Shown here in pieces: positions 4,916 to 57,160 of a DNA stretch of 64,000 nucleotides; within the stretch, counting starts at the first letter, position 1; every line of letters starts with the position of its first letter. Origin of the DNA: Isurus oxyrinchus. Its lineage: Eukaryota. The stretch is taken from assembly GCA_026770705.1 (NCBI GenBank), contig JANJGN010000023.1, positions 37,944,001 to 38,008,000 of the forward strand, given 5' to 3'. The translations under genes were made by a program, and so were the position numbers. The notes below the pieces were generated by a model. The model was not told the origin of the DNA. It made no database searches and saw nothing but the letters and a program-made list of their open reading frames with translations.

Positions 4916-5051
4916 ACAAAAGCAAAATACCTAGATATTAGAAATCTAAAATAAAAAACAGAAAATGATGGAACTACTCAGCAGGTCTGGCAGCATCTGT
5001 GGAGAGAGAAACAGAGTTAACATTTCAGGTCACGGACCTTTCTTCAGAACT
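4916..5051 (-). mobile_element. Micro-PLE (pLTR end) with hammerhead motif
   Basis: Homologous to 54683-54818; minus strand reads AGTT CTGAAGA A AGGTC cgt GACCT GAAA TGTT AACT (5015-5051). Confidence 0.75.
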
Positions 5052-5914
5052 ACAGGCTGTGTTTGAGTGGGAGTACTTGGCAGTTGGAAGAGTTGATAAA
5101 ATTGGCGAAGGTGAGAGGAAGTAATGCTGCATGTGGAGAAGGCCCTGTGCCTCCAAAGGTTCAAGTCAGATCACTGGCTCCCAGCTATGGGTGCTATAGT
5201 TGCATTCCCTGTTGGGCTGCAACATGAGATTGAGAGAGAGCAAAGGTAGCAAAGAAGAGGAAAAGCTGCTCATGACCAGAGGACTCACAACAGGAGGCCT
5301 TACTCTTTTTGGGTTATACTTTTGGAGCACTTTTCTTACCACAGCCTAAGCTGGGAGCAGTGTGTGCGCTCACTCTGTTTTGTGAAGGAGATGCTCACAA
5401 AACCCTGCCTCACTTCTTGCAGCCAGACCCCCTAAGCCCTAGAGCAAAGTGAAGACAGCACTGCCAATGGCTATGAAGGTGAGTGCGGCCTAAATTTCTT
5501 TGTGACAGGATCCTTCCAGGCTGGAGAAGGCAATATCGGTAACAGTTCCCAGTTTGCAGTCAGCTGCTGTGTCAGTACCATGACAGCTGTTCTCAATGCC
5601 AGGAGAGGTGAGTTCACTGTGTGTTTTGAATAGAGAGAAGCAGATGGAGCATGCACATGGTTTTGCCAGGATAGGAGCCATCCCCATGGTAGGGTGTCAT
5701 CGATTGCATACACATAGCTTTGTGGGCATCGCATTTCAATACTGAGATGTACTAAAAACTCTCTGAATATGTGTTTGGTATGTGACCATGCTCAGCCTAT
5801 CATGCTGGTGAATGTCTGCTATTCTACCCATAGTCATGAAGATTTTGTTTTGCGCCAGTCTGCTGTTCCCTCAGTCTTTCAGCCACCACATTAAACAAGA
5901 GTGTTTCTAGTACA

Positions 5915-6573
5915 GAATTGAGTATTGCTGAAAAAATACATTTTGTCAAAGCTTTTCATCTTGCATTCATCAGGACAATCAGGACAATGTGGTATATGAA
6001 TTTCAGTGCCAGTGTGATGCTAGATATATAGGCTCTATGTTCCAAAGACTGGCAGATCATATCAAACAGCATGTCCCTTCTGCTGGTTGCAATGGGCAAG
6101 ATACATACCATACCCAACCAGCCCGTGCTTGCAAAACTCAAAACATGGTGTCCAACATTAGATGTGATTCAGCGATTGGGCAACATATGCTAACTAATCC
6201 CCAGTGTGCTAAAAATTACACTCAAGTCAAATTAAGATTGTTAGTCGGACTCAGTGTGGTGCATTTGCGTGTACTGGAAGCTACATATATTAATACACAG
6301 GCCCTGTTCTTTGCAGACAGAAAGAACATATACACACATTGTGCCTATTACAGCTAACAACACAAATGATAGCCATTCACTGGTTCATTCCTCAGGAAAT
6401 GCCTTGACCAATCAGAGTCAAGCCACCTGGTTCAACATTTCAAACAAGGCTTGGCAGTTAACTGTCAGTCACCATTAATTGGTGCATTCTCCATGGCAAT
6501 GCCTCTACCAATCAGAGTCCACTTGCCAACCATTCAGCACTCTCTTCTCATGTCCTTTCTCAGCAATACTCAA
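5915..6573 (+). mobile_element. Second PLE family: GIY-YIG endonuclease 3' fragment with short inverted pLTR
   Basis: ORF 5989-6357 VYEFQCQCDARYIG...RLADHIKQH...SAIGQH...VLEATYI is GIY-YIG-like; the ends ttgagtattgctga (~5916) and tcagcaatactcaa (~6560-6572) are inverted; degenerate hammerhead on the minus strand at ~5944-5977. Confidence 0.7.
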
Positions 6574-8269
6574 GATGGTTTCTGCTTCGATATAAAAGCT
6601 ATCTGCTTTAAACCTGGCTCATGACTCTGCTCTGTCGCCCAGTCATGCCATCACACGTACAATCAGAGCTATGCTGTCATGTGAAACATCATGTTGACTT
6701 GAAGCAATTATTCTGCTGCCTGGACCACTCTGGAGGAGCCCTGCAGTACTCGTCAAAGCATATGTCCCAATTCTTGGTGCTCTATATCCTTCGGAACCTG
6801 GTCATCATGAGGGCACATCCCTTGCCACCAGGAAGGGGAGAAGGTGGAGGAGCAGGAAGGGAGAAGGCAGCTGACAGATCCTGTTCTGGTCAAGCTGCCC
6901 TGAGAGTCTCATTCGACTGAAGTCCCCGTGAACTCAACCCTCAATCCCTATTCTACCAGCAGCCCCTTACCTTAACATCCCTCTGTTACCATCAATGTCC
7001 TCTTTGCCAAAATATTGAAATAAAAACCATCCTAAAACAAACATTTCATGCCAACTTTATCCAATAAACTTCCAATAATCCATGCAAAAGTCAACTAACC
7101 ACCCTTGTGCAATCCATTAGGGTATGTCATGCGGATGGTTGCCTTTTCCTTGCCTAGTGCTCCTGCGCAGTACTACCCAGTGGCTGCAGCATGACTGGTG
7201 GAAAGCTTCTGACTTTCAGTGGGGGAGTCCTGGGCCTTAAAGGCAGGGCTTTGAACTACAACATCTCAGCATAGGCAGTAACAGTCAGGAAATACACAAC
7301 AGCAGGGCAAGTGTTTCAGTGGTGGGAGCACGAATACTGTCCTCCTGAAAGAGGCCAGCAGACTTGTGCTCCATAGTGCAATTGTTACTCCAGTGAGTGA
7401 TGTCTCAGCTATCCTTTAATCTACTGGAGCATCGATTGTTGAACCCTGAAAACCCATTTGGTCACTGGCATCTGGAACCGTGATGGCAGCAGTCTGCACC
7501 TGCATGACGATAAGCTGAAATTTTGTGACCTCAGATCATTTAGGTGACTTCTGTTTGTGCCAGCACTGTCTCCTCTGTGGCGGCAACAGTGTGCAACCGT
7601 TCCTTGCTACCACTGTTTAGGTGTTCCTGCAACTGATTATGGGCCATCCTGTCCTGCAAGAGCAAGGGAATTATGTCGGAGTGTGGTGCAGTGTGTTTGG
7701 GTGATGTGCCTGCCACAGTTGAATAGATGGAAATTTGTGCAAGCTGTAAGATGTGGATGTGAGGCTGGCGTCAGTGCTAAGCATGCTAAGTAAGGTGAGA
7801 CAGTGAATCTTGGACATGAGCCATGCTTGATAGAGACTGTTGCGAGGGAGTAGTAAGTGAGGCTAGAGGTTCATTTTTAATAATGTGGCATGTGAAGATG
7901 CATTTGCTCACTTTCTTTAATCAGGTGAGGTGATTGAACATTTTCTAGCAAAGCATTCAGATTTTTGGAGCTACACTGCTGCACACTACTGTCATTTAAA
8001 TTCACAGACAGCACAACATTTATGTACTGCCTGCATCCCTGCACCCAATTACCAGCCTAATATAAGTTTTCCCCAGGACCTTTTAAGAACAGGAAAAGTC
8101 CACTTTGTCTAACAAAGATTTTTTTTTGGTTGAACTCAATCCCATCTTCCTCAGTATCGTCATACTATTCAATCCTGTTTTATTCCAGAATCATATTTAT
8201 GCTACTTGGCACTATGGCAAATTATTTTATAAATATTTATAAATATGTTGTGTAGAATGTTTTGTGTCT

Positions 8270-9360
8270 GAGTTACCTATTAGGAGAAAGCAACTGGGGA
8301 TAGTGGGTATGTACTCAAATTGACTGGAAGTGAATAGTGGTGCTCCACAGAGGTCTGTTGTGGGGGCATGGCTTTTCATGTTCTCTTAAATGACTTAGAT
8401 AAAGGATTTGAGAGCCACTATCTGAGTTTGCTGATGATACTAAGTTAGGTGGCACCGTTGTCAGTGTATATAAGAGCAGAAACTTGTAAAGGGACATTGA
8501 TAGATAAGTGAATTGGCAAAACTGTGACAAATGAGGTTCAATGTGGATTAGTGTGAAGTCATCAACTTTTGACTCAAAAGAGATCGATCTGAGTATTTTG
8601 CAAATGTGAGAAGCTAGGATTTGTGGTTGAGCAGAAATATTTAGGCATCCCAGTATAGAGATCATTAAAAGATAGAGGATAGGTATCTAATTTAAAGGCT
8701 AATAAAATGCTGCCTTTATCTTCAGAGACTGGAATGCAAAGGGGTGAAAATTATGTTATAGCTGTACAGAGTTCTGTTTAAATCCTGCCTGGAGTTTTGC
8801 ATTCAATTCTGGGCAGCACACCTCAGGAAATATATATTGGCCTTGGAACGGTACCGTGCAGATTCACCAGAATGATAAAAGCAAAATACTACAGATGCTG
8901 GAAATCTGAAGTAAAAGCAGAAAGTTCTGGTAAAACTCAGCAGGTCTGGCAGTGCCTGTGGAAAGAGAAACAGAAGAAAAGTCGTATTGGACTTTAAACA
9001 TTAACTCTATTTCCCTCTCCACAGATGCTGCCAGACCACCTAGTTTTTCCAGCACTTTGTTTTTATTTTACCAGAATGATACTAGGGCTAAAATAGTTAA
9101 ATTATGAGGATAGGCTGTATTAGTCTTGCATTCCCTTGAATATAGAGGATTAAGGTGTGATCTAATTGAGGTGTTTAAGATGATTAAATGATTTAATAGG
9201 GTCAATAGAAACTATCTCCTATGGTGGGAGAGCCTAGAACAAGAGAGCATCACTTTAAAATTAGCATGGTCGTTCACTCAAGGGCAATGTCAGAAAACAT
9301 TTTTTCACACAAAGGGTAGTGAAAATCTGGAACTATCTTCTCCCAAAAAGCAGTTGAGGC
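8270..9360 (+). mobile_element. CR1 ORF2 RT/C-terminal fragment (interrupted by micro-PLE)
   Basis: FADDTKL-encoding tttgctgatgatactaagtta at 8427; typical CR1 downstream sequence. Confidence 0.75.
8878..9069. mobile_element. Hairpin micro-PLE (two inverted pLTR ends) with 12-bp TSD
   Basis: Inverted arms (cagcaggtctggcag / ctgccagacc); TSD accagaatgata at 8866-8877 and 9070-9081. Confidence 0.8.
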
Positions 9361-10099
9361 TAGGTCATTTGAATATAATTATATAAAACATCTTTAACAT
9401 AGTACAACGTACTAAGGCGTTTAACATTATTATGAGGAAGGAATCAATATAAAGCCAAAGAAGAAGTTATGAGAGCTGACCCAAAATTTGGTCAGAGTGG
9501 AAATTTAAGGAAGCAGAGAACTGGAGGTAAAAACTGAAATTGGGACCTAGCTGACTGAAGGCATGGCTCTCAATAATGGATAGAAGGAGGGGTTGCATTA
9601 GGTCCTAGAATTGGAAGCATAGGGAGTTCAGGAGGCTTTATAGAGCTAGAGGAGGGTGTAGAGATTGTCATGGGCAAGTCTATGGACATACTCAAATACA
9701 AAGATAAGAAAATAATGTTTGACACATTGAGGGACTAAAAGCCAATGTTGGTCGGTGAGTATAGGTATGATAAATCAGTGGCACTTGTGCACCAGGGTTT
9801 TAAGTGTGCTGAGTTATAAAGAGAATGGGGGATTGGAGGCCAACCACGAGAGTATTGGAGTAGTTGATTCTGAAGATGGCAAGCTGTGTATGGTGGTAGA
9901 CTCCACAGTCATGATTATGTCTTTGTTATACTATTTGGCTCTCTGTATTGTGACCAGTATACTCAAATGAAGTTTGCCAATGTCTTTTCCCATATCAACT
10001 TCATCACATATGATTTGTATCCTGTTTACCTGGTAAAGCAGCCCAGTACTTCATTTCTGAAGAGAGATCTGTACCCAAAACATTGGCCATTTTTAAATT

Positions 10100-10800
10100 T
10101 TTTGTTCATGGATGTAGGTATTACTTGCAAAGCCAGCATATATTGCCCATCCCTAATTGTCCTTGAGAAGATGGTGTGTCACCTTCTTGAACTACTGCAG
10201 TCCATATGATTTAGGTAGTTCCACGTTCCTGCTAGGGGGGGAGTTCTAGGATTTTGACCCAATGAAAAGGAAGGTCAAGTCAGTCATACAAATTCCAAGT
10301 TGGAATGGTGTGTGGCCTGGAGGGAAACTTACAGCTGGCACATGGGAACATTATCCACCAACTTTAGAGTTCCCTCTCGTGTTCTTTCCAGGCGCCAGCT
10401 TTCTTGCCCTTTTAGGTACAGGTCTGGAAGGTGCTGTCGAAGGAACCTTCATGAGTTGCTGCAGCGCATCTTGTGGTTGGTACACACTGCTGCTGCTAGG
10501 CGCCATTGGCGGACAGAATGAATGCTAAAGTTGGTGGATGGTGTCCCCATGCACTAGCTGCTCCTGTCCTTCTAGGTGTGGATTTGGAATGTGCTGCTGA
10601 AGGAACCTTGGTGACTTGCTCTGCCAATCAAGTTGGCTGCTATGGCTTGGATAGTATTGAGTTTCTTTAGTGTTGTTAGAACTGAACTCATTCAGGCAAA
10701 CGGAGAGTATTTCATTACAGTCCTCACTTGTGCCTTGTAGGTGGTGAATAGGCTTTGGGGAGGCAGGAATTGAGCTTTTCACCACAGAGTTCCCAACTTC
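10100..10800 (-). mobile_element. LINE family B 3' fragment
   Basis: ttcatggatgtagg...ttgcccatccctaattgtccttgagaag tail plus ORF2 C-terminal homology. Confidence 0.7.
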
Positions 10801-10894
10801 TGTTTAGACATTAATAGGCTTGCTACACATAATTATCATTTTCTGCTTTTAGTCCAATTCCTTCCTTATTTATCTTTTGAGTCTGGGGATTTAT

Positions 10895-11395
10895 TAATGG
10901 GAAATAATGAGATGGCAGATGAATTGAACAGATATTTTGCATTGGTCTCCAGTACAGAGGATATAAGTAACACCCCAGAAAGAGCTGTAAATTAGGAAAT
11001 GGAAGAGAGGGTAGAACTCAAGAAAATTATAATCACCTGGGAAGTGGTATTAAGTAAATTGTTGGAGCTGCGTGCTGACAAGACCCCAGGACTTCACCCT
11101 ATGACCTTAAAAGAAGTGGCTAGTGAGATAGTAGATGCGTTCATTTTAATTTTCAAAAATTCCCTAGATTTGGGGAAAGTAGAGAATGTAACTCCTTTAT
11201 TCAAAAAGGGAGAGACACAGGAAGCAGGAAACTACAGGCCAGTTAGCTTAACATCTGTCATAGGGAAAATGTTAGAAGCTATTATTAAAGACAATATAGC
11301 AGAGCACTTGCAAAAATTCAAGATAATCAGGCAGAGTCAATATGGTTTTGTGAAAGGGAAATCATGTTTAACCAATTTATTGGAATTCTTTGAAC
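10895..11395 (+). mobile_element. CR1 ORF2 fragment
   Basis: ORF 10999-11421: NVTPLFKKG..AGNYRPVSLTSVIGKMLE...QYGFVKGKSCLTNLLEFF. Confidence 0.85.
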
Positions 11396-12479
11396 CATAT
11401 AATATCAATGTCGAGTGTTGAAATCCTGAGAAGATTTCTGAATATGTGTTATTTTTCTCCGCATTTCAACACTTGCTATTGTTATTATATAGCTCATTGA
11501 TTCTGTGCATATGCATTCTGGGTGAATAGGCATCGGACCATGGAGGAGCCCATGGGAGGTGGGTGAGGGGGTGTGAGGGGCAAGGGCAAGAAGGCCTAAC
11601 TGCTTTTAATACAGCTGGGACAAAACCCTAGAGAACCAAGGCAGGCCTTCTAACCAGCCCACCTTGGATCTTGCCTGCCCCCATGGCCACCTACAATCTG
11701 TTTCTGGGATCAGCAAGCATGACTCTATTGAACAGTCTCCCCTGAGGGAATATGGGTTGTAACATGTCTGTTTTCACTGAGGCGGGTCTGCTGAGTCAGG
11801 AAAATTCCCAGTCTGGGCTACCTGCTTTGGTAGCGAAAATCCAGCCCATTGTCTTTGCTTTGATGTTAGAATCAAGGTAAATGTTTTGTTCTTGATTTCA
11901 AATCAAAGACCCCAAACTGCTCAGAAACATATATTAGAAATAGGGGTGCAGCATTTTGGGTTTTGGGTCAGGACCCTGAGCAGCAGAGTGAAATGGGAGT
12001 CACAACCCCGCACTCTGTAGGGAACAGTCACCTGGCAGTGATTTTCCCTGAATTGGCCAATTAGTGGCCAGAGGGTGGGCTGGCTGTCCAGTTAAGGATG
12101 GGAGGTTGGCTCTCAAAGCTGAAGAGCCAATAGGAGGTCGTGCAGCTCAGGAGAAGCAGCAGACTATCTTTTTAGGTTAAGAGAGAAAGCAGATTCCTCA
12201 ACTCAGGATGGAGGTGACCTCTCTCCAACTTGTTAAAATTTTAAATAAGAATTGCCCTTTGCAGCTGATTCACCATTTTGGAGGGAGATAGGGGTTGGGG
12301 TGCTGGGAGCTAGGCAGGTGGGAAGGGCCTCAAGGCCATCCTGAATTAGTGCTCCTCCTTTCCCCCAGCCCCCCAACTGTCTGTCAGGAGGCCACCTCTA
12401 GTCACTGATGCCTTGGGGGCCCAGAGGCCAACTGAAAAAATCAAGTTGGCTTCTGACAATAGGAGCACAGGAGCATTGT

Positions 12480-12800
12480 TTTTATTCTTTCACAGGACGT
12501 GGGGCTTGCATTTTTATTGCCCGTCCCTAATTACCTTTCAGAAGGTGGTGGTGAGCTGCCTTCATGAACTGCTGCAGTTCACGTGGAGTAGATATGCCCA
12601 TAGTGCTGTTAGGAAGAGAGTTTCAGTATTTTGACCCAGGATCAGTGAAGGAATGGCATATAGTTTAAAGTCAGGATGGTGTGTGGCTTGAAGGGGAACA
12701 TGCAGGTGGTGGTGCTCCCATGCATCTGCTCCTTGTCCTTCTAGGTGGTAGAGGTTATAGGTTTGGAAGGTGCTGTTGAAAGAGCCTTAGTGAGTTGCCA
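12480..12800 (-). mobile_element. LINE family B 3' end
   Basis: Same tail as 14390 and 63715. Confidence 0.7.
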
Positions 12801-14389
12801 TATGATCAGGAGTAGGCCATTTGGCTCGTTGAGCCTGCTCTGATTCAATGATTGAGCTTCCACAGGCCTCTGCAGTAGGGAATTTCAAAGATTCATCACC
12901 CCCTGAGTGAAGAAATTCCTCCTCATCTCAGCCTTAAATGGCCAGCCCCTTATTCTGAGATTGTGTCCCCTGGTTCTAGACTCACCAACTGGGGAAACAT
13001 CTTATCTATATCTACCCTGTCACAGCTGTAATACTTCTGTTAGTTTCAGTGAGGTCACCTCTCATTCTTCAAAACTCTAGAGTCTGAGCCCAGTTTCCTC
13101 ATTGCGCTCCCTCTGTGGCAAGTATATCCTTCCTTAGATAAGGAGACTAAAACTGTAAACAATGCTCCAGGTGCGGTCTCACAATTGTGGCAAAGCATCT
13201 TTACTCCTGTATTTCAATCCTCTTGTGATGAAGGCCAACATGCCACTTGCCTTCCTAGCTACTTGCTGTATCTGACTGCTAAATTTTAGTGACTTATGAA
13301 CAAGCAGACCAAGGTCCCTTTGGACATCAACACTTCCTAACCTTTCACCATTTAAGAAATACTCTGCCTTTCTATTTTTTCTACCAAAGTGGATAACTTC
13401 ACAATTATTTGCATTATATTCCATCTGCCACGTTCTTGCTCATTCACTTAGCCTGCCCACGTCATCTTGAACCCTTCTTGCGTCCTCCTCACAACTTACA
13501 TTCCCACCTAGTTTTGTGTCATCAGCAAATTTGGAAATATTACGTTTGGTCCCTACATCTAAATCATTTATATAGATTGTGAACAGCTCTAGCCCAGCAC
13601 TGATCCTTGCGGTACCCCACTCATGACAGCCTGCCATCCGAGAATGACCCGTTTACTCTTGGTTTGTTGTTTGTTAACAAATTCTCAGTCCAAACCAGCA
13701 TATTATCCCCAATCCCATATGATCTAATTTTGTTTACTAAACTCCTCTGTGGGATCTTATTAAAAGCTTTCTGAAAATCCAAACACACCTTATCCACTCG
13801 TTCTCCTTTATTTACGCTGCAAAGAACATCCTCAAAAAACTCCAAGCATGTTTTTCTAACATGAGTTCCCTTTCATAAATCCGTGTTGACTCTGTCCAAT
13901 CATATCATTATTTTCTAAGTGTCTATTTATCACATCCTTATAGATTCTAACATTTTCCCTACCGCCGATGCCAAACTAACAGGTCTGTAGTTTTCCGTTT
14001 TCTCTCTCCCTCCGTTCTTCAAAATAGTGGGGTTACATTTGCTACATTCCAGCCTGCAGGAGCCTTTCCAGAATCTATAGAACTTTAAAAGATAACCAAC
14101 AATGCACCCACAATCTTTATAGCCACCTCCTTCAATATTCTGGGATGTAGTTCATCAGATTTAGGGGATTTATCAACCTTCAATCTAATTAATTTTTTGA
14201 GTACTACCTCTTTATTAATACTAATTTCTTTCAGCTCTCATTTTCACAAGACCCTTGGTTCCCTAATATTTTTGGGAGATTTTCTGTATCTTGCTCCGTG
14301 AAGACAGACACAAAGTAATTGCTTAGTTTTTCCACCATTTCCCTGTTCTCCATTATAAATTCTCTTGTCTCTGCTTGAATTTTTAAAAA

Positions 14390-14993: not shown

Positions 14994-15191
14994 ATCTGAC
15001 ATTTGTCCTTGCTAATCTTTTCCTTTTCACATATCCAAAGAAACTTTTACAATCTGCCTTTATGTTTCTCGCTAGGTTGCATTCATATTCTCACTCCCCT
15101 TTATCAGTTTCTTGGTCCCCCTTTACTGGATTCTAAACTGCTCCCAATCCTTGGGTTTAGCACTTTTTCTGGCAGCCTTATAAGCCACTGT

Positions 15192-15360: not shown

Positions 15361-15576
15361 ATCTTTCTTTGACCTAATGCAATCTTTAACTTTTTTTGTT
15401 AAGCACTGTTGATTTACCATTCCAGTTGGGTTTTTGTGTCTTAGAGGAATGTATATTTATTTTCGACCATGTGATTAAGTACTTTAAGTACTAGCCATTG
15501 TCTCTGTCTACTGTCAAATTTTTAGTGTATTTTCCCAATCCACCATAGCCAACTTGCACCTCATACCTTCGTAGTT

Positions 15577-15677
15577 CTGTCGAAGGGTCATGAGGACTCG
15601 AAACATCAACTCTTTTCTTCTCCGCCGATGCTGCCAGACCTGCTGAGTTTTTCCAGGTAATTCTGTTTTTGTTTTTG
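15577..15677 (+). mobile_element. Micro-PLE of the young Neptune family, 10-bp TSD
   Basis: Nearly identical to 57227-57320; TSD cttcgtagtt (15567-15576) / cttcatagtt (15678-15687); begins at the hammerhead core. Confidence 0.85.
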
Positions 15678-20914: not shown

Positions 20915-21140
20915 AAAAAAAACAAAATAATGCAGATGCTGGAACTCTGAAATAAAAACAAAAAGTGCTGGAAAAACTCAGCAGGTCTGGCAGCATCTGT
21001 AGAGGGAGAAACAGTGTTACTGTTTCAATTGCAATATAACTCTTCAGAACTCTTCAGTTGCAAAGAAGAGTCATATTGGACTTGAAACGTTAACTCTCTT
21101 TTTCTTCTCGCAGATGCTGCCAGACCTGCTGAGTTTTTTC
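20915..21140. mobile_element. Hairpin micro-PLE (inverted pLTR ends meeting at hammerheads)
   Basis: Left arm ends ...ctcttcagaact; right arm starts agtt..aagaagagtcatattggacttgaaacgttaact. Confidence 0.75.
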
Positions 21141-21286
21141 ATTTCACAAACATTGGGGCATTCCTAATCAGAGGGGGAAGAGACACTGTCACTCCCTCCT
21201 ATTCTTGCAGCACCAGCTCAGATATGGACACATTAGTACTTTGAGGCTAGGATAGAGCAGGGATCTGGAGGGATCAGTAATCAGTA

Positions 21287-25389: not shown

Positions 25390-27650
25390 ACATAAGAATT
25401 AGGAGCAGGAGTAGGCCACTTGGCCCCTCGAGATTGCTCCGACATTCAGTAAGATCATGGCTGATCTAATTTTAACTTCAACTTCACATTCCTGCCAATA
25501 CCTGATAACTTCTCACCGCCTTGCTTATCAAGAATCTATTTACTTCTGCCTTAAAGACAATTCAAAGGCTCTGCCTCAACCACCTTTTGAGGAAGAGAAT
25601 TCCAAAGTCTCACAACCCTCTGAGAGAAAAAAAAAATTCCTCATCTCTTTCTTAAATGGGTGACCCTCTATCTTTAAACAGTGGCCCCTAGTTCTAGATT
25701 CTCCCACAAGAGGAACCATCCTTTCCACATCCACTCTATCAAGTCCCCCAGGATCTGTTATGTTTCAATCAAGTCACCTCTTACTCTTCCAAACTCCAGC
25801 CGAGAAAGGCCTAACCTGTCCAGCCTTTTCTCATAAGACAACTTGCCCATTCCAGGTATTAATCTAGTAACCCTTCTCTGAACTGCTCCATTGCATTTAC
25901 ATCTTTCTTTAAATAAGGAGACCAATACTGTACACAGTACTCCAGAGGTGGCCTCACCAATACCCTGTATAACTGAAGCATAATCTCCCTACCCTTGTAT
26001 TCAATTCCCCTTGCAATAAACAATAATATTCTATTAGCTTTGCTAATTACTTGCTGCTCCGGCATACTAACCTTTTGTGATTGATGCACTAGGACATCCA
26101 GATCTCTCTGCATCTCGGAGCTCTGCAGTCTCTCACCATTTAGATAATAAGCTTATTTTTTATTCTTCCTGTCTAAATAGACAATTTCACATTTTCCCAC
26201 ATTATACTCCATTTGCCGGATCTTTTCCCACTCATCCAATCTATCAATACCCTTTTATAGTCTCCTAAAGTCCTTTTCACAACTTACTTTCCTGTCTTTA
26301 TCTTTTTGTTTTTGTTCTAGATTTCCAGCATCTGCAGTATTTTGCTTTTTTCCTATCTATCGTTGTGTCATCATCAACAAATTTAGCTACCATACCATTG
26401 GCCCCTTCATCCAAATCATTTATATAAATTGTAAAGAGTTGAGATCCCAGCACTGATCCATGTGCCACACCACTCATCATATCATGCCAACCAGAAAATG
26501 ACCCATTTATGCCTACTCTCTGTTTCCTGTTAGTTAGCCAATATTCTATCCATTACCCCCTACATCATGAGCTTTTATTTTCTGCAGTACCCTTTTATGA
26601 GGCACCTTATCAAATGCCTTCTTAAAATCTAAGTACAGTACATCTAGTGGACCCCCTTTATCCACAGCACCTGTTACTTCTTCAAAGAACTCCAATAAAT
26701 TGGCTGAACATGATTTCCCTTTCACAAAATCATGTTGAGTCTGCCTGATTACCTTAAGTGCCCTTTTATAACATCTTTAATAATAGCTTCTAACATTTCC
26801 CTATGATAGATGTTAAGCAACTGGCCTATAGTTTCCTGCTTTCTGTCTGCCTCCCTTTTTGAATAAAGTAGATTTGTTAGCTATTTCTCAATCTAATGGA
26901 ACCTTCCCCGAATCTAGTGAATTTTGGAAAATTAAAACCAATGTATCAACTATCTTGCTAGCCACTTCTTTTAAGATCCTAGGATGAAACCCAACTGGAC
27001 CCAGGGATTTGTCAACCTGCAGTTCCAACAATTTGCTAAGTACTACTTTCCTGGTCATTGTAATTTTCTTGAGTTCCTCCCTCCCTTCCAATTCCTGACT
27101 TACAGCCATTTTTGGGATGTGGACTGTATTATGAAAACCCATGCAAAACACCCATTCAATTCATCTGCAATCTCTTTATTTTCCATTCTTAACTCCGCAG
27201 ACTCACTTTCTATAGGATCAATGCTCACTTTATTAATTCTTTTTAAAATATCTATAGAAACTCTTACTATGTCTTTATATTTTTAGCTAGCTTTCTCTCG
27301 TACTCTAATTTTTCCATCCTTTTTAATCTTTTAGTCATTCTTTCCTGTTTTTTATATTCTATCCAATCTTCTGACCTGCCACCCATCTTTCCGCAATGAT
27401 ATGCATTTTCTTTAAGTTGACATTATCTTTAATTTCTATAGTTAACCGCAGATGGTGGGTCCTCCCCTTGGAATTTTTATTTCTTGTTGGAATGTATCTA
27501 TTCTGTGTGTTCTGGAATATCCCCTTAAATGTCTGCCACTGCATCTCTATTCACCTATCCTTTAACATAAATTCCTAGTTCACTTTCGTTAGCTCTGCTT
27601 TCATGCCCTCATAATTGCCCTTATTTAAGTTTAAAATACTAGTCTTAGAC
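25390..27650 (-). mobile_element. 5'-truncated CR1 LINE
   Basis: ORF fragments GSVLG..LFTIYINDLD, LYRVLVRP.LEYCVQYWSPYL; 3' UTR ending near ataagaatt at ~25390. Confidence 0.9.
26298..26350 (+). mobile_element. Ultra-short PLE tail insertion in CR1
   Basis: tttttgttctagatttccagcatctgcagtattttgcttt is the PLE pLTR tail; flanked by tttcctgtct / tttcctatct. Confidence 0.6.
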
Positions 27651-39525: not shown

Positions 39526-39619
39526 GAAAAAAAGTCAGTAGCAACATTAGTGTGTGTCAAACACTGGGTCTGTTAAATATATCATTGACTGTTTAACATT
39601 TTTATTTTTTTCCCCAAAG

Positions 39620-42480: not shown

Positions 42481-42881
42481 TTAGAAATTGGCAAAAAAAA
42501 TTTTCAGCATTCACCTTGGAATATATGACTGTTGCAAGTTGAAAGATAATCAGTTCTGAAACCATTCTAGATATTGTACAATACTAAAGGCAGTTATACA
42601 ATGCATTGATATTGTTTGTAAGTATAATATTTAGCAGATAATTGTCAGACTTAATGCCCCCTGGGAGAAGCCCTGTCTTTTGGCAGCATATATTCAAAAC
42701 ACAAGTACGTAACGGAAATCATATGGAATGCACTTCTTAATTCTTGATCTGCACTCTAGGTTAATGAGGCTGTCCTGGGAGCACAAAGTTGGATAATTAC
42801 TCACTATGTTTATCGAGTGGATTTTAAAAGAAATCCGGACAGGCATTTTAATTTGACTTAGAGAAGCCTCATTTTAACTTA

Positions 42882-43542
42882 AGGCTAGAATATTGCCGTC
42901 GGTGTGCAGGGACAGGCTCAACACACCGATGTGTAAAATGACGCAAATGATGTCGGGTGTGCGTCCCGACGTCATCACACGTCATTTCCATCTTTTGTTT
43001 GGCGGGCGCACAGCCGACACTGGCGCACACCCGCCAAACTGTCAACGGCCAATTAAGGCCATTAAAAACGTAATTAACCATATTAACAATGCTGCTCATC
43101 AAACCTTAAGGTTGGCGGGCAGGCGAAGAGCCCAAGCTGCCTTCGCGTTTTTCAGGAAACCTCATCCACGGGCGGGATGAGGTTTCTTGAAGGTTTTAAA
43201 AAGTAATTGAATAAATTTTCAAAACTTCACAAGCATGTCCCAGCTCATATGACACTGTCACATGATGTGACATGTTTAAATAAATTTTCACTTTATTTAT
43301 TAAAAAGTTTGGTTGTCAACTTAATCTCAGGGAGATTGCTGTGCTCTTTTATGAACATACGTGAAAGAGCGCAGGCCCCCCAACTCTCCCTCCTCTCCCA
43401 GCCCACACAGGTAGCGCTGAGCACTACTGGCCGCGCATTATGCTGTGTGGGCCTTAAAATGGAGGCGCACAGCTGATCATGGGTTTCGCGCCCACCCACG
43501 CCTGCTCCTGAACAGCCCACCCACCAACTGAAAAATTCACCC
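42882..43542. mobile_element. Harbinger-derived MITE with TTA TSD
   Basis: Degenerate TIRs (aggctagaatatt / aaaattcaccc), tta on both sides; left ~300 bp is the reverse complement of the Harbinger right ends. Confidence 0.75.
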
Positions 43543-43824
43543 TTAAGTGTTTTCATCAAATATCATGTGACGGATTTGTCACTATGTGCAGGGATGCCAT
43601 AAGTAATTTATTGAATATCTTCTCTGTTTGGTATTTTTAGAAAAATGGGAGTGAAGATTTTGCTAAAAATCCAGAATAATGAAAATCTTCCTGAATGCAG
43701 TTGTACACATAGCAACCACAGGAATCACCATCCTGTGTAGCTTGTTTGAACTATCCTCAGAAATTGATCAGTTAGATGTTTAGCATATAAGTTGATATTT
43801 TAATTGTTGTACAAACTGTTTTAG

Positions 43825-43896
43825 AGATCTGCATGGAAATCAACTTGACACACTACAGAAGGATTCATTTGAAGGGCTCATTTTAGTAAAGAAATT
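43825..43896 (+). CDS. LRRC37: LRRC37-like exon 3 (72 bp, LRR2: DLHGNQLDTLQKDSFEGLILVKKL)
   Basis: ttttag acceptor, gtaagt donor, LxLxxNxLxxLxxxxFxGL consensus. Confidence 0.93.
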
Positions 43897-44307
43897 GTAA
43901 GTATAGCTATTAACTGTTAAACAAATCATTTTCAATTGCTTATTTCAAACTTCCCATTTTGTTAATTGTAAATATTATTCAACAGTTAAAGAGACCAAAT
44001 GTAAAATAAATGTGTAAATTTTCTAAAGGGATTAAGCATTTTTACTTAATACTCAGTGACTGTTTCAAGAATTCTTATGTCAGAGATGAGGTGCTACTTT
44101 CCCAACAATATATTTCAATTTCAGCCTGAGAACATGATCCCATTCTCCACTGTTGAATACCTTACACACCATATCCTATGCTTGCCATCCATGCAAATTC
44201 TTGAGGGGAATTGAGCTACTACCACTGAATTTGGGAAGAGTTATATTAGGAAGTATTCTGCTGAGAATGTGATTTTTAAACTGGAACTGAATATTCAGAT
44301 TTCTGAG

Positions 44308-44730
44308 AGAGAGCTGTGGCTCAGTGGATAACATTCTTGCCTCTGAGTTAGAAGGTTCTGGGTTCAAGTCCATCTTTAGGGCCAGAGTGTAAAAATCAAG
44401 GCTGATAATTAAGTGCAGGACTGAGGGAGCACTGCACTGTAGGAGGTGCTGTCTTTTGGATGAAATGTTAAACTGAGGCCTCCTCTGCCTGCTTGAGTGG
44501 ATGTAAAAGACCCCTTGGCTCTTTTTCGAAGAAGAACGAGGGAGTTGTCCCAGTGTCCTGGCTAGTTATCACATTGCTGTTACTGGGAATTTGCTGAGCG
44601 CAAATCGGTTGCTGTGTTTCCTACATTACAACCGTGACTACATGTCAAAAAGAACATCATTGATTACAAAGCGTTGAGAGACATCCTGTGGTCATTAAAA
44701 GTGCTTTGTAAATGCAAATCTTTTCTTCCT
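44308..44730 (+). mobile_element. DeuSINE copy
   Basis: gctgtggctcagtgg...gggttcaagtcc head, Deu-like core, taaatgcaaatctttt tail. Confidence 0.78.
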
Positions 44731-45330
44731 TTTTTTCTTTGCCAGATGTATACCAAGATCTCAGTGGTGAATGAGCCGCATTCTTACCCAATATTTGCCC
44801 TTATTCTATACATTAATTCAACCATCTGCTGTAGTGCTCCGCTGTTCGGCTTCACAGTTTCTATTGGACTTTATCCAGTGATTGGTTGTTACTTTCAGCA
44901 AGTATTCTCTCTGTCCTGTACCCCGCAGGAGAAATGTGTGATGATGTTTCTTGGGAGTACTTAATACAGTACAGACTTATAAGTGTAGTCATCATTCATT
45001 CTATTAGGTTCAGGTAGCTCCACTAGGTGCAACACTATTTGCAGTTCCATTGTGTGTGATGCCAGACATATGTTGTTACCATTATCAGGCTCATTGGTCC
45101 ATTCCAGTGGGACAATATAGCTCTTCAGTCTAGAACTTTTGAAAGTATATTGAGTCAGATCAAACGTAAATAACTGTATGCTCTTTCTATGTCCATAGCT
45201 TTGTATAGAAGTAATAACCTACAAGTGCTTTACCACAGAGTTATACAATGGTTGTGCACTGATTGTTATGGAGCATTTTTGGATTTTCAGGCGCAACATT
45301 ATTGAACAGTTTGTTTTTATTCCAACATAG

Positions 45331-45402
45331 GAATCTTTCTCAAAATGCCATCGTGAAAATTGCAGGGTATACATTTCAAGCTCTACCTTTCCTGGAAACT
45401 CT
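45331..45402 (+). CDS. LRRC37: LRRC37-like exon 4 (72 bp, LRR3: NLSQNAIVKIAGYTFQALPFLETL)
   Basis: catag acceptor, gtgagt donor, LRR consensus, phase 2-2. Confidence 0.93.
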
Positions 45403-47414
45403 GTGAGTTTTAGTATTCATTTTGAAATATCTAAGAATCTAGTGCAGTATACATATCAGGAAAGGGTGAAGAGGCTGGGTTTCTTGAAAAAAGAAGGCTG
45501 AAGGGGTGATGGAATAGACGTCTTTAAATTTAAGAAAGATTTTGATACGGTAGTTGCAGAGAGAATGTTTCTACTTGTGAGGAAGAGCATAACTCGAGGC
45601 CATCAGTATAAAATAGTCACCAAGATATTGAAATTACAGTTGTTGCAGGAGATTCCAGAATCAGGGGGACAGACAGGCATTTCTGTAACAGTTTTCATGA
45701 GTCCCGCATGGTGTATTGTTTCCCTGATGCCAGGGTAAAGGACACCACAGAGAGGCTGCGGAATATTCTTCTAGAGGAAAGGAGTGAGACAGAAGTTATG
45801 GTAAATATTGTTACTGATTACATAGAGCGGGCAGGCATTGAGATCCCAAGGTCAGATTTTCAGGAACTAGGAAGGAAGATAAAAAGTAGGACCTCAAAGA
45901 TCTCTGGGTTACGCCCAGTGCCACACACTATCCAGAGTAGAAATACAAGATAGGGAGGATTAATATGTGGTTAGAAATATGTTGCAGGAGGAAGGGCTTC
46001 AGATTCTTGGGGAATTGGGACCAATTCTGGGGTAAGAGGCACCTATTCAAATAAAACAGATTGCACCTCAATAAGACTGGGACCAATGCCCTCATGGGGA
46101 GGTTCACTAGTGTGGTTGGGGAGGGTTTAAAATAAATTGGCAGGGGAATGGGCACCAGGATACAGAATTAGGGAAGAGGAATAAAGTGCATAAATTGAGG
46201 GTGTTGGGCAGTACTGGAGAAAGATGTAGTTCCGTATTAGACAAGAGTGGACTAAGAAAGACTACTGGGAATGCAAAGATAGGATTACAATATATTTGTA
46301 AATGCACACAAAGTTCGTGAACTACAAGCTCAAATAGCCTTGTGGGCATTTCATGTGTCCGAAATAACAGAAATGTGGCTTAAAAGTAGTGCGAATGGGG
46401 TGCTTAATATCCAAAAATATAGAGTGTTCAAAAAAGATAGAGAATAATAAAAAGGAGGTGGTGTGGCTGTACTGATTAGGGAAGACATTGCAGCATTGGA
46501 AAGAGGGGATGTCCCTGAGGGAACAAGGCCAGAATCCATTTGGTTAGAGTTCAGAAGCAAAAAGGGTATGATTGTGCTACTGGAAATATTCTATAGGCCT
46601 CCAAAGATTGAGAAAGAGAGAGATAGAGGAACAAATCACAGAGATATGAAAGAACTAAAGAGTGATGATATTGGTGGTCTTTAATTGCCCAAATATTGAT
46701 TCGGAAATTGTTAGAGAAAAGGGGAAAGTGGGATGGGGAGGGGAGTTTCTGAAATGTGTTGAGGAGAACTTCCTTGATCAGTATGTTCACGGCCCAACTA
46801 GAAAGGAGGCATTGCTGGATCTGTGGTTGGGAAATGTGGTGAGCCAAGTAGACCAAGTGTCTGTGGGAGTACTTGGGTAAGAGTGATCATCACATCATAA
46901 AGCTTAGATTAATAATGGAGAAAAGCAAGGAACAATATGAAGTAGAATGTCTAAATTGGAAGAGGGCTAATTTCAATGGGATGAGAATGGATGTAGCCAG
47001 GGTAAAATGGAATTAAAGACTAACAGGAAGAACTTTAACAGAACGACGGATGGCCATTAAGGAAGAGTTGCTTCAGGTTCAAAGAAGGCACATTTAAACA
47101 AGAGTGAAAGGCAGGGGGGAACCGAAAACAGGACTCCTTGGATGACAAGGGAGATAGAGAATATGATGAAATGATAAAAGAGGTTTATGATGTATGTCAG
47201 ATGTATTCTTCATGTGAGAACCATGTTAAATACAGTAGGTTGAGAGGGGAGGTGAAGAGGAAAATAAGACTGGCAAAGAGAGAGTATGAGAATGGAATGG
47301 CAGTCAAAATAAAAGGGAACTGAAAATTCTTTTACCAGCATGTAAATAGTAAGTGGGTAACAAGAAGTTGAGTGTGCTCTATTAGGGATAAAGAAGATGA
47401 AATATGCCTAGCAC

Positions 47415-47875
47415 AGCAGGGTAGAGGTTGCCTCCTTCAATAGCCCCCTTCCAATATCGGGTGCACCTCCCTCCACCCAGCCCAAAAAGGTCTGGCTCTT
47501 GCAGGTGCTCCCTCCCCTACTGGTGTCTCCAACAACACCCCTACCTCCCACCTTTCCTTCCCGCCCTGAGACCCCACACTCTTCTGGTCCTTGACTCCTG
47601 AGACTTAGATTCTAGGGACTGCTTATAGTCCCAGTCCTATCCATTGCAGTTTCTGGTGCTGCTGGGACTAGAGAGCTACCGGCCAATCATATTGTCTGGC
47701 AGTTCGCTGAGGTGTGACTTCCTCTCAACTGAGGGGGCAGAAGTCCTGCCACCATCCCATTAACATTCTTTGGAGCATCAAATGGCTGCAGGACAACCAG
47801 TATCAGTGGCAATGTGTTCCCCATTGACTCCTCAGATGGTGGGAAAGGAAACTCCGCCATCCAAAAAACCTTGGC
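47415..47875. mobile_element. Unclassified GC-rich insertion (probably DNA-transposon derived) in CR1
   Basis: Interrupts CR1 ORF2; CR1 homology resumes at tgagtacttcgcatcc (~47880). Confidence 0.45.
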
Positions 47876-48935
47876 CAGTGAGTACTTCGCATCCATGTTT
47901 ACTAAGGAGGAGGAATCTGGCAAATATTGGTAAAATTGGAGATAGTAGTGGGTGAAAATTGAGAGCGAGGAGGTACTGGAAAGGTAAGCTATACTTAGGC
48001 TAGATATGTCACCTGGTCCGATGGCTTGCATCACAGGTTGTTGAAGGAAGTGTGGGTGGAACTAGCGGAAGGGCTTGCCATAAATTTCCAATCTTCCTTA
48101 AATACGGGGGAAGTGCCAGAGGATTGGAAAGTGACAAATGTGACACCCTTATTCAAGGAAGAAGGTAAGGACATTCCTAGCAAATTTAGACCAGTTAGTT
48201 TAATATCAATAGTGGGTTAGGTTTAGAAACAATAAGTAAGGGAAAAAAAACAAGCACATGGAGAGGCTTGAGTTAATCAAGGAGATCCAGCAAGGATTTT
48301 TAAAAAGCAGCTCATATTTGACTATTCTAATTGAATTTTTTGATGATGTAACAGAGAACATTGATGAACGGAATGCGACAGATGTTGTCTATATGGCTTT
48401 TAAGAAACTGTTCAACAAAGTACCACATAAAAGATTGGTTAACAAAATTAAGGCTCGTGGAATAGAAGGGTCAGTTTCTAATTGGATAAAATGTTGGCTT
48501 AAGGACAGAAAGCAGCATTGGTTATTTTTCAGACTTGGAAATGGTAGAGAGTGCCCAAGGGTCAGTGCTAGGTGGCTGCTTTTTTCTTGCAATATATAAA
48601 TGACTTGGATTTTGGAATACAGAGTAGAATTCCACAATGTGCCGATGCTGCCAAACTTGGAGTGGCAAACAGTGATGATGATACAAATCACCTGCAACAA
48701 ACTGAGAGCAGAATAGACAGGCAAGTGGCAAATTAAATTTAATATGGAGAATTGTGAGGTGATGCATTTTGGAAGAAAGGATGGGGAGAGGCAATATATA
48801 CTTAACGACACAATCCTCAAAAGTGTGCAGGAACAGAGGGACCTGGGGGTGCATGTGCATCAATCTTTGAAGGTGGCAGGATATATTGAAAGAGTCATTA
48901 GAAAAGAATATAGGATCTTGACTGTCATAAATAGA

Positions 48936-49710
48936 GAATCATAAAATCATAGTATTGTTATGGTGCAGAAGGAGACCATTCACCCCATCAGATCTGCACT
49001 GGGTCTCCAAATGAGCATTATGACTCAGTGCCGTTTTCCTGCCTTTTCCCCATAACCTTGCAAATTGTTTCTGTTTAAATAATCATTTAATGACCTCTTG
49101 AATGCCTCGATTGAACCTACCTCCACCACACCTTCCAGGCAGTGCATTCCAGACCCAAACCACTTGCTGTGTGAAAAAGGTTTATCTCACGTCACATTTG
49201 CTTCTTTTACAAATCAGTTTAAATTTGTGCCCTCTTGTTCTTGATGGCTTTACGAGCGGGAATAGTTTCTCGTTACCTCCTCTGTCCAGCCCCCTCATAT
49301 TTTTGAACACTTCTATCAAATCTTCTCTTAGCCTTTTCCTTTTCAAGGAGAACAGTCCCAACTTCTCCAATCTATCTTTATAAGTGTGGTTCTTCATCCC
49401 TGGAACCATTTTCTGCACACTATCTAAGGAGTTTACATCCTTCCTCAAGTGCGGCACCCAGAACTGTACACAGTACTCCAACTGAAGTTTAACTAGTGTC
49501 CTTTACATATTCAACATAACCTTGCTCTTGTGCCTATTAATAAAGCCTGGGCTACTGTATGCTTTATTAACTGATCTCTACACCTGTCCTGTCACCTTTA
49601 ATGACTAATGTACATACACACCCAGCCTCTGCTCCTGCACACCCTTTAGAGTTGTACCCCTTTTTTTATGTTGTCTCTCCATGTACTTCCAACCAAAATG
49701 AATCATGTCA
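48936..49710 (-). mobile_element. CR1 3' fragment inserted antisense in CR1
   Basis: ORF 49182-49481 EYCVQFWVPHLRKD...LEKLGLFSL..RLREDLIEVFK. Confidence 0.85.
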
Positions 49711-51608
49711 CCGAGGCATCAAGTACACAAGCATGGCAGTTATGCTGAACAGTTATTAAGCTCTGGTTAGGTCCCAGCTGGAGTTTGCATCCAGTTCTGG
49801 TCACCACACTTTAGGAAGGATGTGCAAGCCCTTGAAAGGGTGCAGAAGAGATTTACCAGAATGGTTCCAGGGATGGGGGATTTTTATTACAAGGTTAGGA
49901 TGGAGAAAATTGGGTTGTTCTCCTTAGAGCAAAGGAGATTGAGGGAAGATTAGATTGAAGTGTACAAGATTAATACAAGGACTAGGGATCACAGATATAA
50001 GGTTTTGGGCAAGGTACGCAGGGGGAATGTCAGGAAGAACTTTTTTACATAGTGAGTGGTAGGTAAGACCTAGAAGTCACTGCCCACAAGGGTGGTGGAA
50101 GTGAAAACAATCGATGGTTTCAAAAGGAAATTGGATTGTCACTTGAAAGAAATTAACCTGCCTACAGGGATCAAACGGGGAGTGGGACTGACTGGATTGC
50201 TTCAAGAAGAGCTGCATGGACTCCATTGACTGAATAGCTTCCTTCTGTGCTGCAAATGACTCTATGACTCTAAATCCATTGGGGAATTCTGAAGAAGCTT
50301 CTGTATCCAAAGAATGTGGAATTTGCTACCATAGAGAGTATTGAGGCGAGTAGCATAGATGCATTTTAGGGGAAGCTAGACAAACATATGAGGGAGAAGG
50401 GAATTGAGGGTTACAGTGATGAATGAGGAAAGATGGAAGGATGCTCAACTGGAGCTTAAACACTGGCATGGGCCCATTGGACCAAATGTCTGTTTCTATG
50501 CCGTATATCCTTCATAATTCTATACAGAATTGTTGTATAGTCTTTGTGATTCTAGTAGTATAATAGTCAACATAGTTCTAGACTTAATCTGTGCTACTTT
50601 GTTCCTGAAATAGTAACGTTTACTTGTCTTTGGCTCAGACAGGAGGTCGTTTAGTATTCTTTAGGAATCATTGGGCTGACCTTTCCAGACTTAAAACATT
50701 TTCAGCCAATTGAGCTGTTATCAGAACCCAACCTCATTTGCAGCACCAGTGTTGCTTCCTGTTAAATGTTCCTGAAGTTGGCCAATTAATTAGGAATGGG
50801 GGACAGCTTGTTAAAACAGGAAGTCGATTCAGCGTATCTCCATTGTAAGAGTAGCTGCCAGCCTTCACTGTATCTGCAGTGAGAGTGCTACTGAGGGGAA
50901 TGTAGCAGGAGAGATAGGGGTTTAATGGAGGCACAATCAGCCTGATGAGAGCAGCTGTCACTGCATCACCTCCAGCTCTATTGGAGACACCGGTACCCAG
51001 GAGCTTCTCACGCAATGACAAGACTCTGTCAGCCAACCAGTGGAAAGCGCCGACAACGTGCACACTCCCGCCACAAAGAGGCCTAAGTCATTTTGAGGCC
51101 CAGGCCTCATTCATCTACAATTGGTGTGCTGAAGGTGCTAAAAGGCTTTCCAGTCTCGTCAGACTCCAGCTAGCACAATATCAGGGGGCAGCCCAGCCAG
51201 CAGCAAGGTGAGGAAGGAGGAAGCACCCCTGTTCCCCTTCGTCTCTCAACGATAATTTAAAACTTATCTTTTCAGGGCCTCTTCTGTTCTGTCATCAGTG
51301 AAAAAAGTTGTAGCGTGCAAAGCACATTCTCTAACCTGTTTCAGGCTGAAAAGTTAACCGGGATCCTTTGTACTGTACATGGGAGTGCGATTTGTAGATT
51401 AATGGAGCCTGCCACCTACCACAGAAGTGTTCATTGCATAATTTGCAATCGCAGAGTGAAAGCACAGCATACTTCTCCTCTGAGAGTGCATTTAATAGTG
51501 TTGTATTTTCACTTTAATAAACATCACAAAAATAAGCAATCTATAGCAATAAAAATTTAATAATGCTCAAGAAATTGAAGTCCCCTTTTTTTGCGGTTTA
51601 TTGCACAG

Positions 51609-51689
51609 CGATCTTTCTGAAAATAAGGTATCAACGCTGCTTGATGGAACATTCAAATCCTGGCATGGATTACGTTTCTTTAGACAATT
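51609..51689 (+). CDS. LRRC37: LRRC37-like exon 5 (81 bp, LRR4: DLSENKVSTLLDGTFKSWHGLRFFRQL)
   Basis: cacag acceptor, gtaagt donor; 27-aa LRR with the GTFxxWHG insertion I recall as characteristic of LRRC37. Confidence 0.93.
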
Positions 51690-51747
51690 GTAAGTGTGAT
51701 ATCAGCAACTTAAATCCTTTCTCCAACAATAAGACATTCTTTTTAAA

Positions 51748-52060
51748 ATAAAAGAGCAAAATACCGTGGATACTGGAAATCTGAAAGACAGAAAATGCTG
51801 GAACTACGCAGCAGGTCTGGCAGCATCTGTGGAGAGAAACTGAATTAATGTTTCAGGTGGATAACAGGCCATTGACCCAAAATGTTGACCGGGATTTTCC
51901 TGGGGATCCTGTGGACCAGCCAAAAGTCCATTGACTTTCCAGGGGACCAGAAAATACTGGCAGTGGGCGGGGCCAGAAAATCCCAGCCAATTGTTCAGTT
52001 TCTCTTTCCGCAGATGCTCCCAGACATGCTGAGCATTTCCAATGTCTTTTTTTCTGATTT
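51748..52060. mobile_element. Hairpin micro-PLE in LRRC37 intron 5, interrupted by a ~100-bp MITE
   Basis: Inverted arms cagcaggtctggcagcatctgtggaga / tttccgcagatgctcccagac. Confidence 0.7.
51887..51988. mobile_element. Small Harbinger-type MITE
   Basis: TIR gaccgggattttc / gaaaatcccagcc. Confidence 0.6.

Positions 52061-57129: not shown

Positions 57130-57160
<31 letters not shown>

What the first reader, a model, noticed from the sequence alone, without database searches (positions are those of the whole stretch)
4916..52060. Micro-PLE insertions whose internal breakpoints cluster at the hammerhead motif
Seen in sequence: five independent 100-300-bp insertions consist only of the pLTR end. 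Copies 4916-5051 and 15577-15677 stop exactly at the 5' edge of the hammerhead (AGTT-CTG). In 20915-21140 two inverted arms meet at that same edge. In 8878-9069 and 51748-52060 the junction falls within the core or stem II. Two copies have clear 10-12-bp TSDs. Most keep the ribozyme instead of starting at the predicted cleavage site. Inference: either the folded or dimeric hammerhead stalls PLE reverse transcription and triggers strand switching, or these form a non-autonomous ribozyme-delimited hairpin retroelement family (retrozyme-like).
Basis: partly seen in the sequence, partly recalled or inferred. Interest (0 to 1): 0.7.

Follow-up and report, generated by a model that had tools for sequence, protein, structure and literature searches.

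The report
Penelope micro-copies mark the RNA start
Tens of thousands of very short copies of a Penelope-type jumping gene in this large vertebrate genome begin at nearly the same base, the front edge of its small ribozyme motif, likely because the element's RNA starts there and the copying enzyme runs off its end, which would give a handle on how these elements rebuild their promoters.

Summary
The clustering is real. In 212 sampled 3' ends of the young family, 60 have their 5' end within 5 bases of the hammerhead's first base (AGTT), against 4.4-8.8 expected from length-decay fits; 0 of 203 start at the predicted cleavage site. Genome-wide, 55% of 91,689 hammerhead cores keep the box 30 bases upstream. 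The short copies are not a lineage of their own: 53 distinct junctions in 56 hairpins, no diagnostic bases. A ribozyme stall fits poorly: the peak is at the far edge of the fold, and cDNAs arriving from the ORF side mostly pass it (5 of 35 stop, against 60 of 180). A TATA-like box lies 28-32 bases upstream in three of four subfamilies. Best reading, inferred: AGTT is the transcription start, and the micro-copies are run-off cDNAs primed about 100-135 bases into the RNA, often on both target ends, giving hairpins. No RNA 5' end was observed; two side tests were inconclusive. The scan noted the fixed start and the run-off idea before, on other DNA. New variant of a known kind.

The parts
4917..5051 (-). 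Single-arm micro-copy with tail, older subfamily (C-like), 5' end at position 0; no TSD found
8878..9069 (.). Hairpin micro-copy: tailed arm on - ends at +38, untailed arm on + ends at +6; 12-bp TSD (8866-8877, 9070-9081)
15573..15677 (+). Single-arm micro-copy of the young family A, no tail, 5' end at 0; 10-bp TSD with one mismatch, overlapping the element's AGTT by 4 bases
20915..21141 (.). Hairpin micro-copy: tailed arm on - ends at 0 (21051), other arm at about +7, short duplication and filler between; no TSD found
26303..26352 (+).
51748..52060 (.). Old hairpin micro-copy, junction in stem II near 51866; + arm interrupted by a later insert with inverted ends (about 51889-51988)
54683..57319 (+). 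5'-truncated parent-type PLE (RT, GIY-YIG, one frameshift) with an inverted tailed pLTR arm at 54683-55011; 14-bp TSD (54669-54682, 57320-57333)
57191..57199 (+). TATA-like box (TATATTTCA), 32 bases upstream of AGTT; promoter role inferred
57223..57261 (+). Minimal type-I hammerhead motif; first base = breakpoint peak and inferred transcription start; predicted cut 57257/57258; core reads CUGUCGA instead of CUGAUGA
   Evidence: architecture as in PMC4209133

Best explanation
These are independent insertions of the 3' pseudo-LTR end of an endonuclease-bearing Penelope-like element whose 5' ends pile up at the hammerhead's first base, likely because that base is the element's transcription start and the reverse transcriptase runs off the RNA there. 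Inferred steps: (1) RNA polymerase II starts at AGTT, about 30 bases behind a TATA-like box in the upstream pLTR; (2) the RT initiates internally at +99 or at the tail end near +135, so on the first pLTR-ORF junction of an RNA it has only 100-135 bases to copy, like retroviral strong-stop DNA; (3) both ends of the cut target can be primed, one at each site, which gives head-to-head hairpins with one tailed arm; (4) the run-off ends are joined to each other or to the target with 0-4 bases of microhomology, trimming or filler, which smears the peak downstream; (5) long copies come from cDNAs that get past this point by a template jump, an internal junction of a tandem read-through RNA, or a circular RNA. 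The hammerhead is a passenger that sits at the RNA's 5' end and is not cut in the templates used.
For: Shown: peak of 60 of 212 at -5..+5, hazard 0.036 per base against 0.001-0.0025 at +20..+68 and below -31; 0 of 203 at +33..+37. Peak in tailed (22 of 79) and untailed (36 of 95) arms, in 36 hairpin arms and 24 single arms. Genome-wide 50,830 of 91,689 cores keep the upstream box; the sample gives 65 of 116, and 64 of 65 long copies have the box intact, so the loss is truncation, not mutation. TATA-like site at -28..-32 in families A, B and C although the spacer sequence differs; C has TATAAAT/TATAAAA at -31 and 10 of 17 arms end at -5..+5. ORF-linked arms stop less often, 5 of 35. Exactly one tail in 33 of the 40 hairpins whose partner end was recognised, none in 7, both in 0. 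Overlap of 0-4 bases at 35 of 56 hairpin junctions. Literature: internal RT initiation at two sites bounding the tail, extension on both target strands, need for ORF-side RNA, uncut RNA as main template (PMC11167929, parts 1-2 read); TSS in the pLTR (PMC2377424, PMC8557442, passages); TATA plus Inr-like motif in a rotifer pLTR (PMC3846280, passages).
Against: No RNA 5' end was seen: only assembled contigs were served and they cannot show starts. The family A and B boxes have 2 mismatches to TATAWAWR and the oldest family D has no convincing box (3 mismatches, 2 copies). The peak is weak in B (3 of 20 at -5..+5, 5 at +6..+16) and diffuse in D (4 of 11). The predicted upstream shift of the peak in the subfamily with the longer TATA spacing has the right sign but is not significant (40 against 18 arms, P = 0.10). 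30 of 35 ORF-linked arms pass the site, so step 5 is required and is untested; relative to their lower baseline the stop is still enriched there, which a stall modulated by processivity could also give. D. virilis Penelope has a TATA-less promoter and a TSS well upstream of its hammerhead (PMC2377424, PMC4209133), so the coincidence is not general. A second, smaller excess at -21..-31 (10 against 2.7, found post hoc) is unexplained.
Confidence: 0.65

Rival explanations
1. The folded or dimeric hammerhead (or a protein bound to it) stalls the reverse transcriptase, which then switches strand or integrates.
For: The peak coincides with the 5' strand of stem I; hazard is also raised at +6..+19 (0.006). 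ORF-linked arms still show 5 stops in 11 bases. RT protein assists hammerhead folding in vitro (PMC11167929).
Against: RT reaches the 3' strand of the fold first, where 2 arms end in +30..+39; by position 0 the whole ribozyme is already copied. Folding of six copies gave no shared helix just upstream (pairing 0.07-0.49 at -30..-1). Stop rate differs between ORF-linked and 3'-end arms (P = 0.027). Hammerhead catalytic mutants do not change the insertion band in vitro (PMC11167929).
Confidence: 0.13
2. The AG of AGTT is a splice acceptor (or another processing site) and spliced or processed RNA is the template.
For: A pyrimidine tract and YAG precede TTCTG in families B, C and D; in D. virilis the intron end maps to the 5' end of helix I (PMC4209133).
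Against: 18 of the 60 peak arms keep 1-5 bases upstream of the AG; the 24 single-arm peak copies share at most 4 upstream bases, so no common first exon; several have the TSD directly adjacent; no splice joint in four putative RNA contig sets (weak).
Confidence: 0.1
3. Junction microhomology creates the peak: the short palindrome around AGTT lets two cDNA ends anneal, or the stem I complement folds the cDNA back.
For: Family A32 has a near-palindrome across the edge; three junction types recur twice; overlaps of 1-6 bases are common.
Against: 24 single-arm copies show the same peak without a partner arm; family C lacks this palindrome yet peaks (10 of 17); stem I fold-back predicts partners at +35..+38 for arms at 0, and none of the hairpins with an arm at -5..+5 has one. 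Microhomology likely shapes the fine positions only.
Confidence: 0.07
4. A non-autonomous, ribozyme-delimited SINE- or retrozyme-like family with its own master copies.
For: High copy number, TSDs, near-constant length of 100-135 bases.
Against: No diagnostic bases or clustering; 53 distinct junctions in 56 hairpins; ends do not match the cut site; copies starting at 0 lack the upstream box; one direct duplication among the classified arms.
Confidence: 0.04

Closest known systems
EN+ Penelope-like elements, Neptune type (PMC8557442, PMC3846280; passages read)
   Same: RT plus C-terminal GIY-YIG, pLTR, optional 30-40-base tail, inverted 5'-truncated arm, TSDs, partial tandems, minimal hammerhead, Cys linker before the endonuclease
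   Different: The passages read describe 5' truncation as frequent and variable; here about a third of arms that reach the hammerhead end within 11 bases
Poseidon element of Anolis (PAc) in vitro (PMC11167929; parts 1-2 of 4 read)
   Same: Two 3' ends bounding a tail, both target strands extended, uncut RNA used, no ends at the cut site
   Different: There the ORF starts in stem II and no genomic 5'-end peak or TSS is reported in the parts read; here the ORF starts about 170 bases downstream
Retroviral / LTR-retrotransposon minus-strand strong-stop DNA (recalled, not from a call)
   Same: Short cDNA primed near the RNA's 5' end that runs off at the transcription start; upstream promoter must be regenerated from the 3' repeat
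   Different: Primed by cut target DNA rather than tRNA and integrated directly; no integrase, no PBS; a strand transfer is not shown here
Non-LTR retrozymes (bioRxiv 10.64898/2026.07.22.740005; parts 1-3 of 5 read)
   Same: pLTR-derived, non-coding, type-I hammerhead, present in a cartilaginous fish
   Different: Defined as tandem repeats with at least two hammerhead units; these are single or head-to-head copies, not bounded by cut sites and without their own lineage

Membership tests
EN+ Penelope-like element (Neptune type) | Single ORF with RT and C-terminal GIY-YIG | tested here: met
   926-codon open frame in L161; RVT_1 and GIY-YIG hits in the window copy, GIY-YIG not reported for the whole L161 protein
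EN+ Penelope-like element (Neptune type) | pLTR, partial tandem, inverted 5'-truncated arm, optional tail | tested here: met
   L161 3328-bp unit between two pLTRs; window 54683-57319; one tail in 33 of 40 hairpins
EN+ Penelope-like element (Neptune type) | Minimal type-I hammerhead in the pLTR | tested here: met
   Motif read by eye against the architecture in PMC4209133; no Rfam hammerhead hit; core altered in the young family; cleavage untested
EN+ Penelope-like element (Neptune type) | CX2-5CxxC linker (Neptune) and RT phylogeny | tested here: inconclusive
   CX4CX2C motif precedes the endonuclease in L161 (motif); no tree with reference clades was built
Non-LTR retrozyme | Head-to-tail tandem units, each with a hammerhead | tested here: not met
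   1 direct duplication among the 122 classified short arms; 71 inverted, 27 TSD-type, 23 unassigned
Non-LTR retrozyme | Unit bounded by ribozyme cleavage; circular RNA | tested here: not met
   0 of 203 ends at +33..+37; circular RNA itself could not be tested
Non-autonomous SINE-like lineage | Own masters: shared junctions and diagnostic bases | tested here: not met
Strong-stop (run-off) cDNA | cDNA end equals the RNA 5' end (mapped TSS, cap-derived G) | tested here: inconclusive
   TATA-like spacing fits; no raw RNA reads served; G excess confounded by partner-arm templating
Strong-stop (run-off) cDNA | Strand transfer to the 3' repeat | not testable with these tools
   Jump, tandem read-through and circle all give the same genomic product

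The most novel reading that the evidence does not exclude
Penelope-like elements make a retrovirus-like strong-stop cDNA: RT primes just inside the mRNA's 5' end, runs off at the cap, and must jump to the 3' pLTR to copy the rest and rebuild the promoter; the roughly 40,000 micro-copies in this genome are failed first jumps, and the pLTR is functionally a U3-R module.
Probability: 0.3. Interest if true: 0.78.

Novelty: new variant of a known kind. Interest (0 to 1): 0.52.

Why it matters
How PLEs regenerate the promoter-bearing pseudo-LTR is open (PMC2377424 states there is no obvious mechanism), and so is the job of their hammerhead. A genome with more than 100,000 young 3' ends gives an in vivo record: templates are not cut at the hammerhead, and a third of cDNAs end at one point that looks like the transcription start. 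This turns the question into direct tests (map the RNA start; assay run-off and jumping with purified RT) and warns annotators that these 100-135-base repeats are by-products of the parent element, not a separate SINE or retrozyme family.

Tried and rejected
Rfam found no hammerhead, only chance miRNA-like hairpin hits. A DNA search with the pLTR as query was biased to long copies and not used for statistics. Random 200-kb blocks gave only 38 hits in 600 kb, so 3'-anchored patterns were used instead. The artefact 'homology ends because upstream sequence differs between subfamilies' was rejected by using subfamily-matched upstream references, TSDs and the 64 of 65 intact boxes. A first alignment pass mis-scored arms whose references contained an inverted arm; 11 calls changed after anchoring. 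RNA contigs of 4 of 23 listed runs showed no splice joint and cannot show starts. Cap-G test: among the first 100 of 5,532 rows, 27 G against 8 A before AAGTT (counted by eye), but the partner arm templates a G there, and the flanks were not available; single extra bases in my sample were G in about 3 of 7: inconclusive. Subfamily shift test P = 0.10. Stem I fold-back rejected for family A. Literature searches for a published 5'-end peak or strong-stop model in PLEs listed none; the library lacks most subscription papers, including Arkhipova 2006 and Evgen'ev and Arkhipova 2005, and no supplements were read (Fig. S2 of PMC11167929 may bear on this).
Full report
What is in the window. The window lies in a 4.98-Gb genome; that it is a shark or relative is my inference from the repeats and from earlier scan notes, not from a call. 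All five named insertions exist and are ends of one repeat superfamily. Their parent is in the window: 54683-57319 encodes RT and GIY-YIG domains, carries an inverted tailed arm and a 14-bp TSD. A complete 3328-bp unit between two pLTRs with a 926-codon open frame was fetched as L161. The pLTR end holds a minimal type-I hammerhead of the kind described in PMC4209133 (parts 1-2 of 4 read). I number from the A of its AGTT (0): predicted cut +34/+35, untailed 3' end +99, tail end about +135. Window copies end at 0, 0, (0 and about +7), (+6 and +38) and (about +10 to +17 twice); two have TSDs.

Is the peak real? A 30-mer at the extreme 3' end of the young family has 111,121 exact matches. I took the 100 places listed there and 120 loci from two single-base variants; after removing duplicates, 212 arms remained, all from contig C1. 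The anchors lie at +47 or further downstream, so they do not select for the hammerhead. 5' ends were mapped against subfamily-matched upstream references. 60 of 212 end at -5..+5 (180 at risk). Hazard per base is 0.036 there, 0.006-0.008 in the shoulders (+6..+19, -6..-30), 0.001-0.0025 at +20..+68 and -31..-300, and under 0.001 beyond. Power-law and exponential decay fits expect 4.4-8.8. None of 203 ends at +33..+37. Genome-wide, 50,830 of 91,689 cores keep the box 30 bases upstream; the sample gives 65 of 116 and long copies keep it in 64 of 65, so about 40,000 arms end within those 38 bases. In older subfamilies (30 arms each) the share ending at -5..+5 is 3 of 20 at risk in B, 10 of 17 in C and 4 of 11 in D; B and D are weak or diffuse, and 3 of these 90 arms end at +33..+37.

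Not a family of its own. 67 inverted arms collapse to 56 hairpin insertions with 53 distinct junctions; 42 have an arm at -7..+5. Micro and long copies have the same majority bases, the same divergence (1.5 against 1.6 differences) and no clustering. Of 122 short arms classified, 71 had an inverted partner, 27 a TSD candidate (some of these distant and doubtful), 1 a direct duplication and 23 nothing assignable. Retrozymes as defined in the 2026 preprint (parts 1-3 of 5 read) are tandem arrays; these are not.

How the hairpins form. In the 40 hairpins whose partner end was recognised, 33 have a tail on exactly one arm, 7 on neither, 0 on both; in 16 the partner end was not matched. This fits PMC11167929 (parts 1-2 of 4): RT initiates internally at two sites bounding the tail and extends both target strands. 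Junction overlaps are 0-4 bases in 35 of 56; the rest mostly have short fillers or duplications. The layout itself is known (PMC3846280, PMC8557442; passages).

Why at AGTT? A structural stall should act where RT enters the fold (+38); the peak is where it leaves. Folding six copies showed no shared upstream helix. As an independent test I sampled 50 of 2,823 arms that continue into the ORF body: 15 end before +9, 5 end at -5..+5 and 30 pass (two of these reassigned by eye); 5 of 35 against 60 of 180 gives P = 0.027. A fixed per-passage stall predicts equal rates, though higher processivity late in synthesis could lower it. Upstream, a TATA-like site sits at -29..-32 in A (82 copies, 2 mismatches in 81), -28/-29 in B (14), -31 in C (5; 1 mismatch in 4) and is unconvincing in D (2), while the sequence between box and AG differs among subfamilies. 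That spacing is the textbook TATA-to-start distance (recalled). PLE transcription starts in the pLTR (PMC2377424, PMC8557442; passages), and a TATA plus Inr-like pair was noted in a rotifer pLTR. Since RT in vitro needs RNA from the ORF side of the initiation sites, the pLTR-ORF junction at an mRNA's 5' end is a natural priming place, and priming there leaves only 100-135 bases to copy. I therefore read the micro-copies as run-off cDNAs (0.65).

What speaks against it. No RNA start was observed: the 23 runs listed were contigs, and the 4 laid gave no splice joint and no start information. The subfamily shift test gave P = 0.10 and the cap-G test is confounded. Most full-length cDNAs pass the site, so a jump, tandem read-through RNA or a circle is needed; these cannot be told apart here. 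The splice-acceptor reading has a precedent in D. virilis but 18 of 60 peak arms keep upstream bases and single-arm copies share no first exon. A small excess at -21..-31 is unexplained.

Novelty. The element, hammerhead, tail and inverted arms are known. Seven paper searches listed no report of a 5'-end peak or a strong-stop model for PLEs, within a library that lacks most subscription papers. Earlier scan notes on other DNA of this genome and of other genomes report the same fixed start and suggest run-off; I saw them after recording my own reading, and they are not independent support. Verdict: new variant of a known kind, interest 0.52.

Noticed in passing
L161:2668-2755 (pLTR-ORF junction; donor also at window 57307): Predicted 88-base GT-AG intron in the 5' UTR that contains both RT start points, which would make only unspliced RNA a template and explain intron retention; signals are absent in family C (L301) and no splice joint was seen in RNA contigs.
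   Followed up: partly
L403, L409, L412, L414, L430, L439 and others: Several copies carry only about 100-135 bases of ORF body behind the tail, hinting at a further RT start point near +275 to +305.
   Followed up: no
family A arms, positions -21..-31: Second, smaller excess of 5' ends (10 against 2.7 expected) over the TATA-like box; found post hoc.
   Followed up: no
L144, L249: Apparently single-arm copies carry a vestigial 10-28-base second arm between TSD and element, supporting priming on both target ends.
   Followed up: partly
window 57227-57233: The young family's hammerhead core reads CUGUCGA or CUGUUGA instead of CUGAUGA; also noted in an earlier scan finding.
   Followed up: no
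window 51889-51988: About 100-bp insert with 14-base inverted ends (MITE-like) inside the + arm of the old hairpin.
   Followed up: partly
window 51590-51690 and 52217-52290: Two apparent exons with leucine-rich-repeat-like translations flank the 51748 hairpin, so it likely lies in an intron of a host gene; judged by eye only.
   Followed up: no
G000:C1:462211-468928: Three hammerhead cores 3.34-3.35 kb apart on one strand: a head-to-tail array of full units, a possible source of read-through RNA.
   Followed up: no
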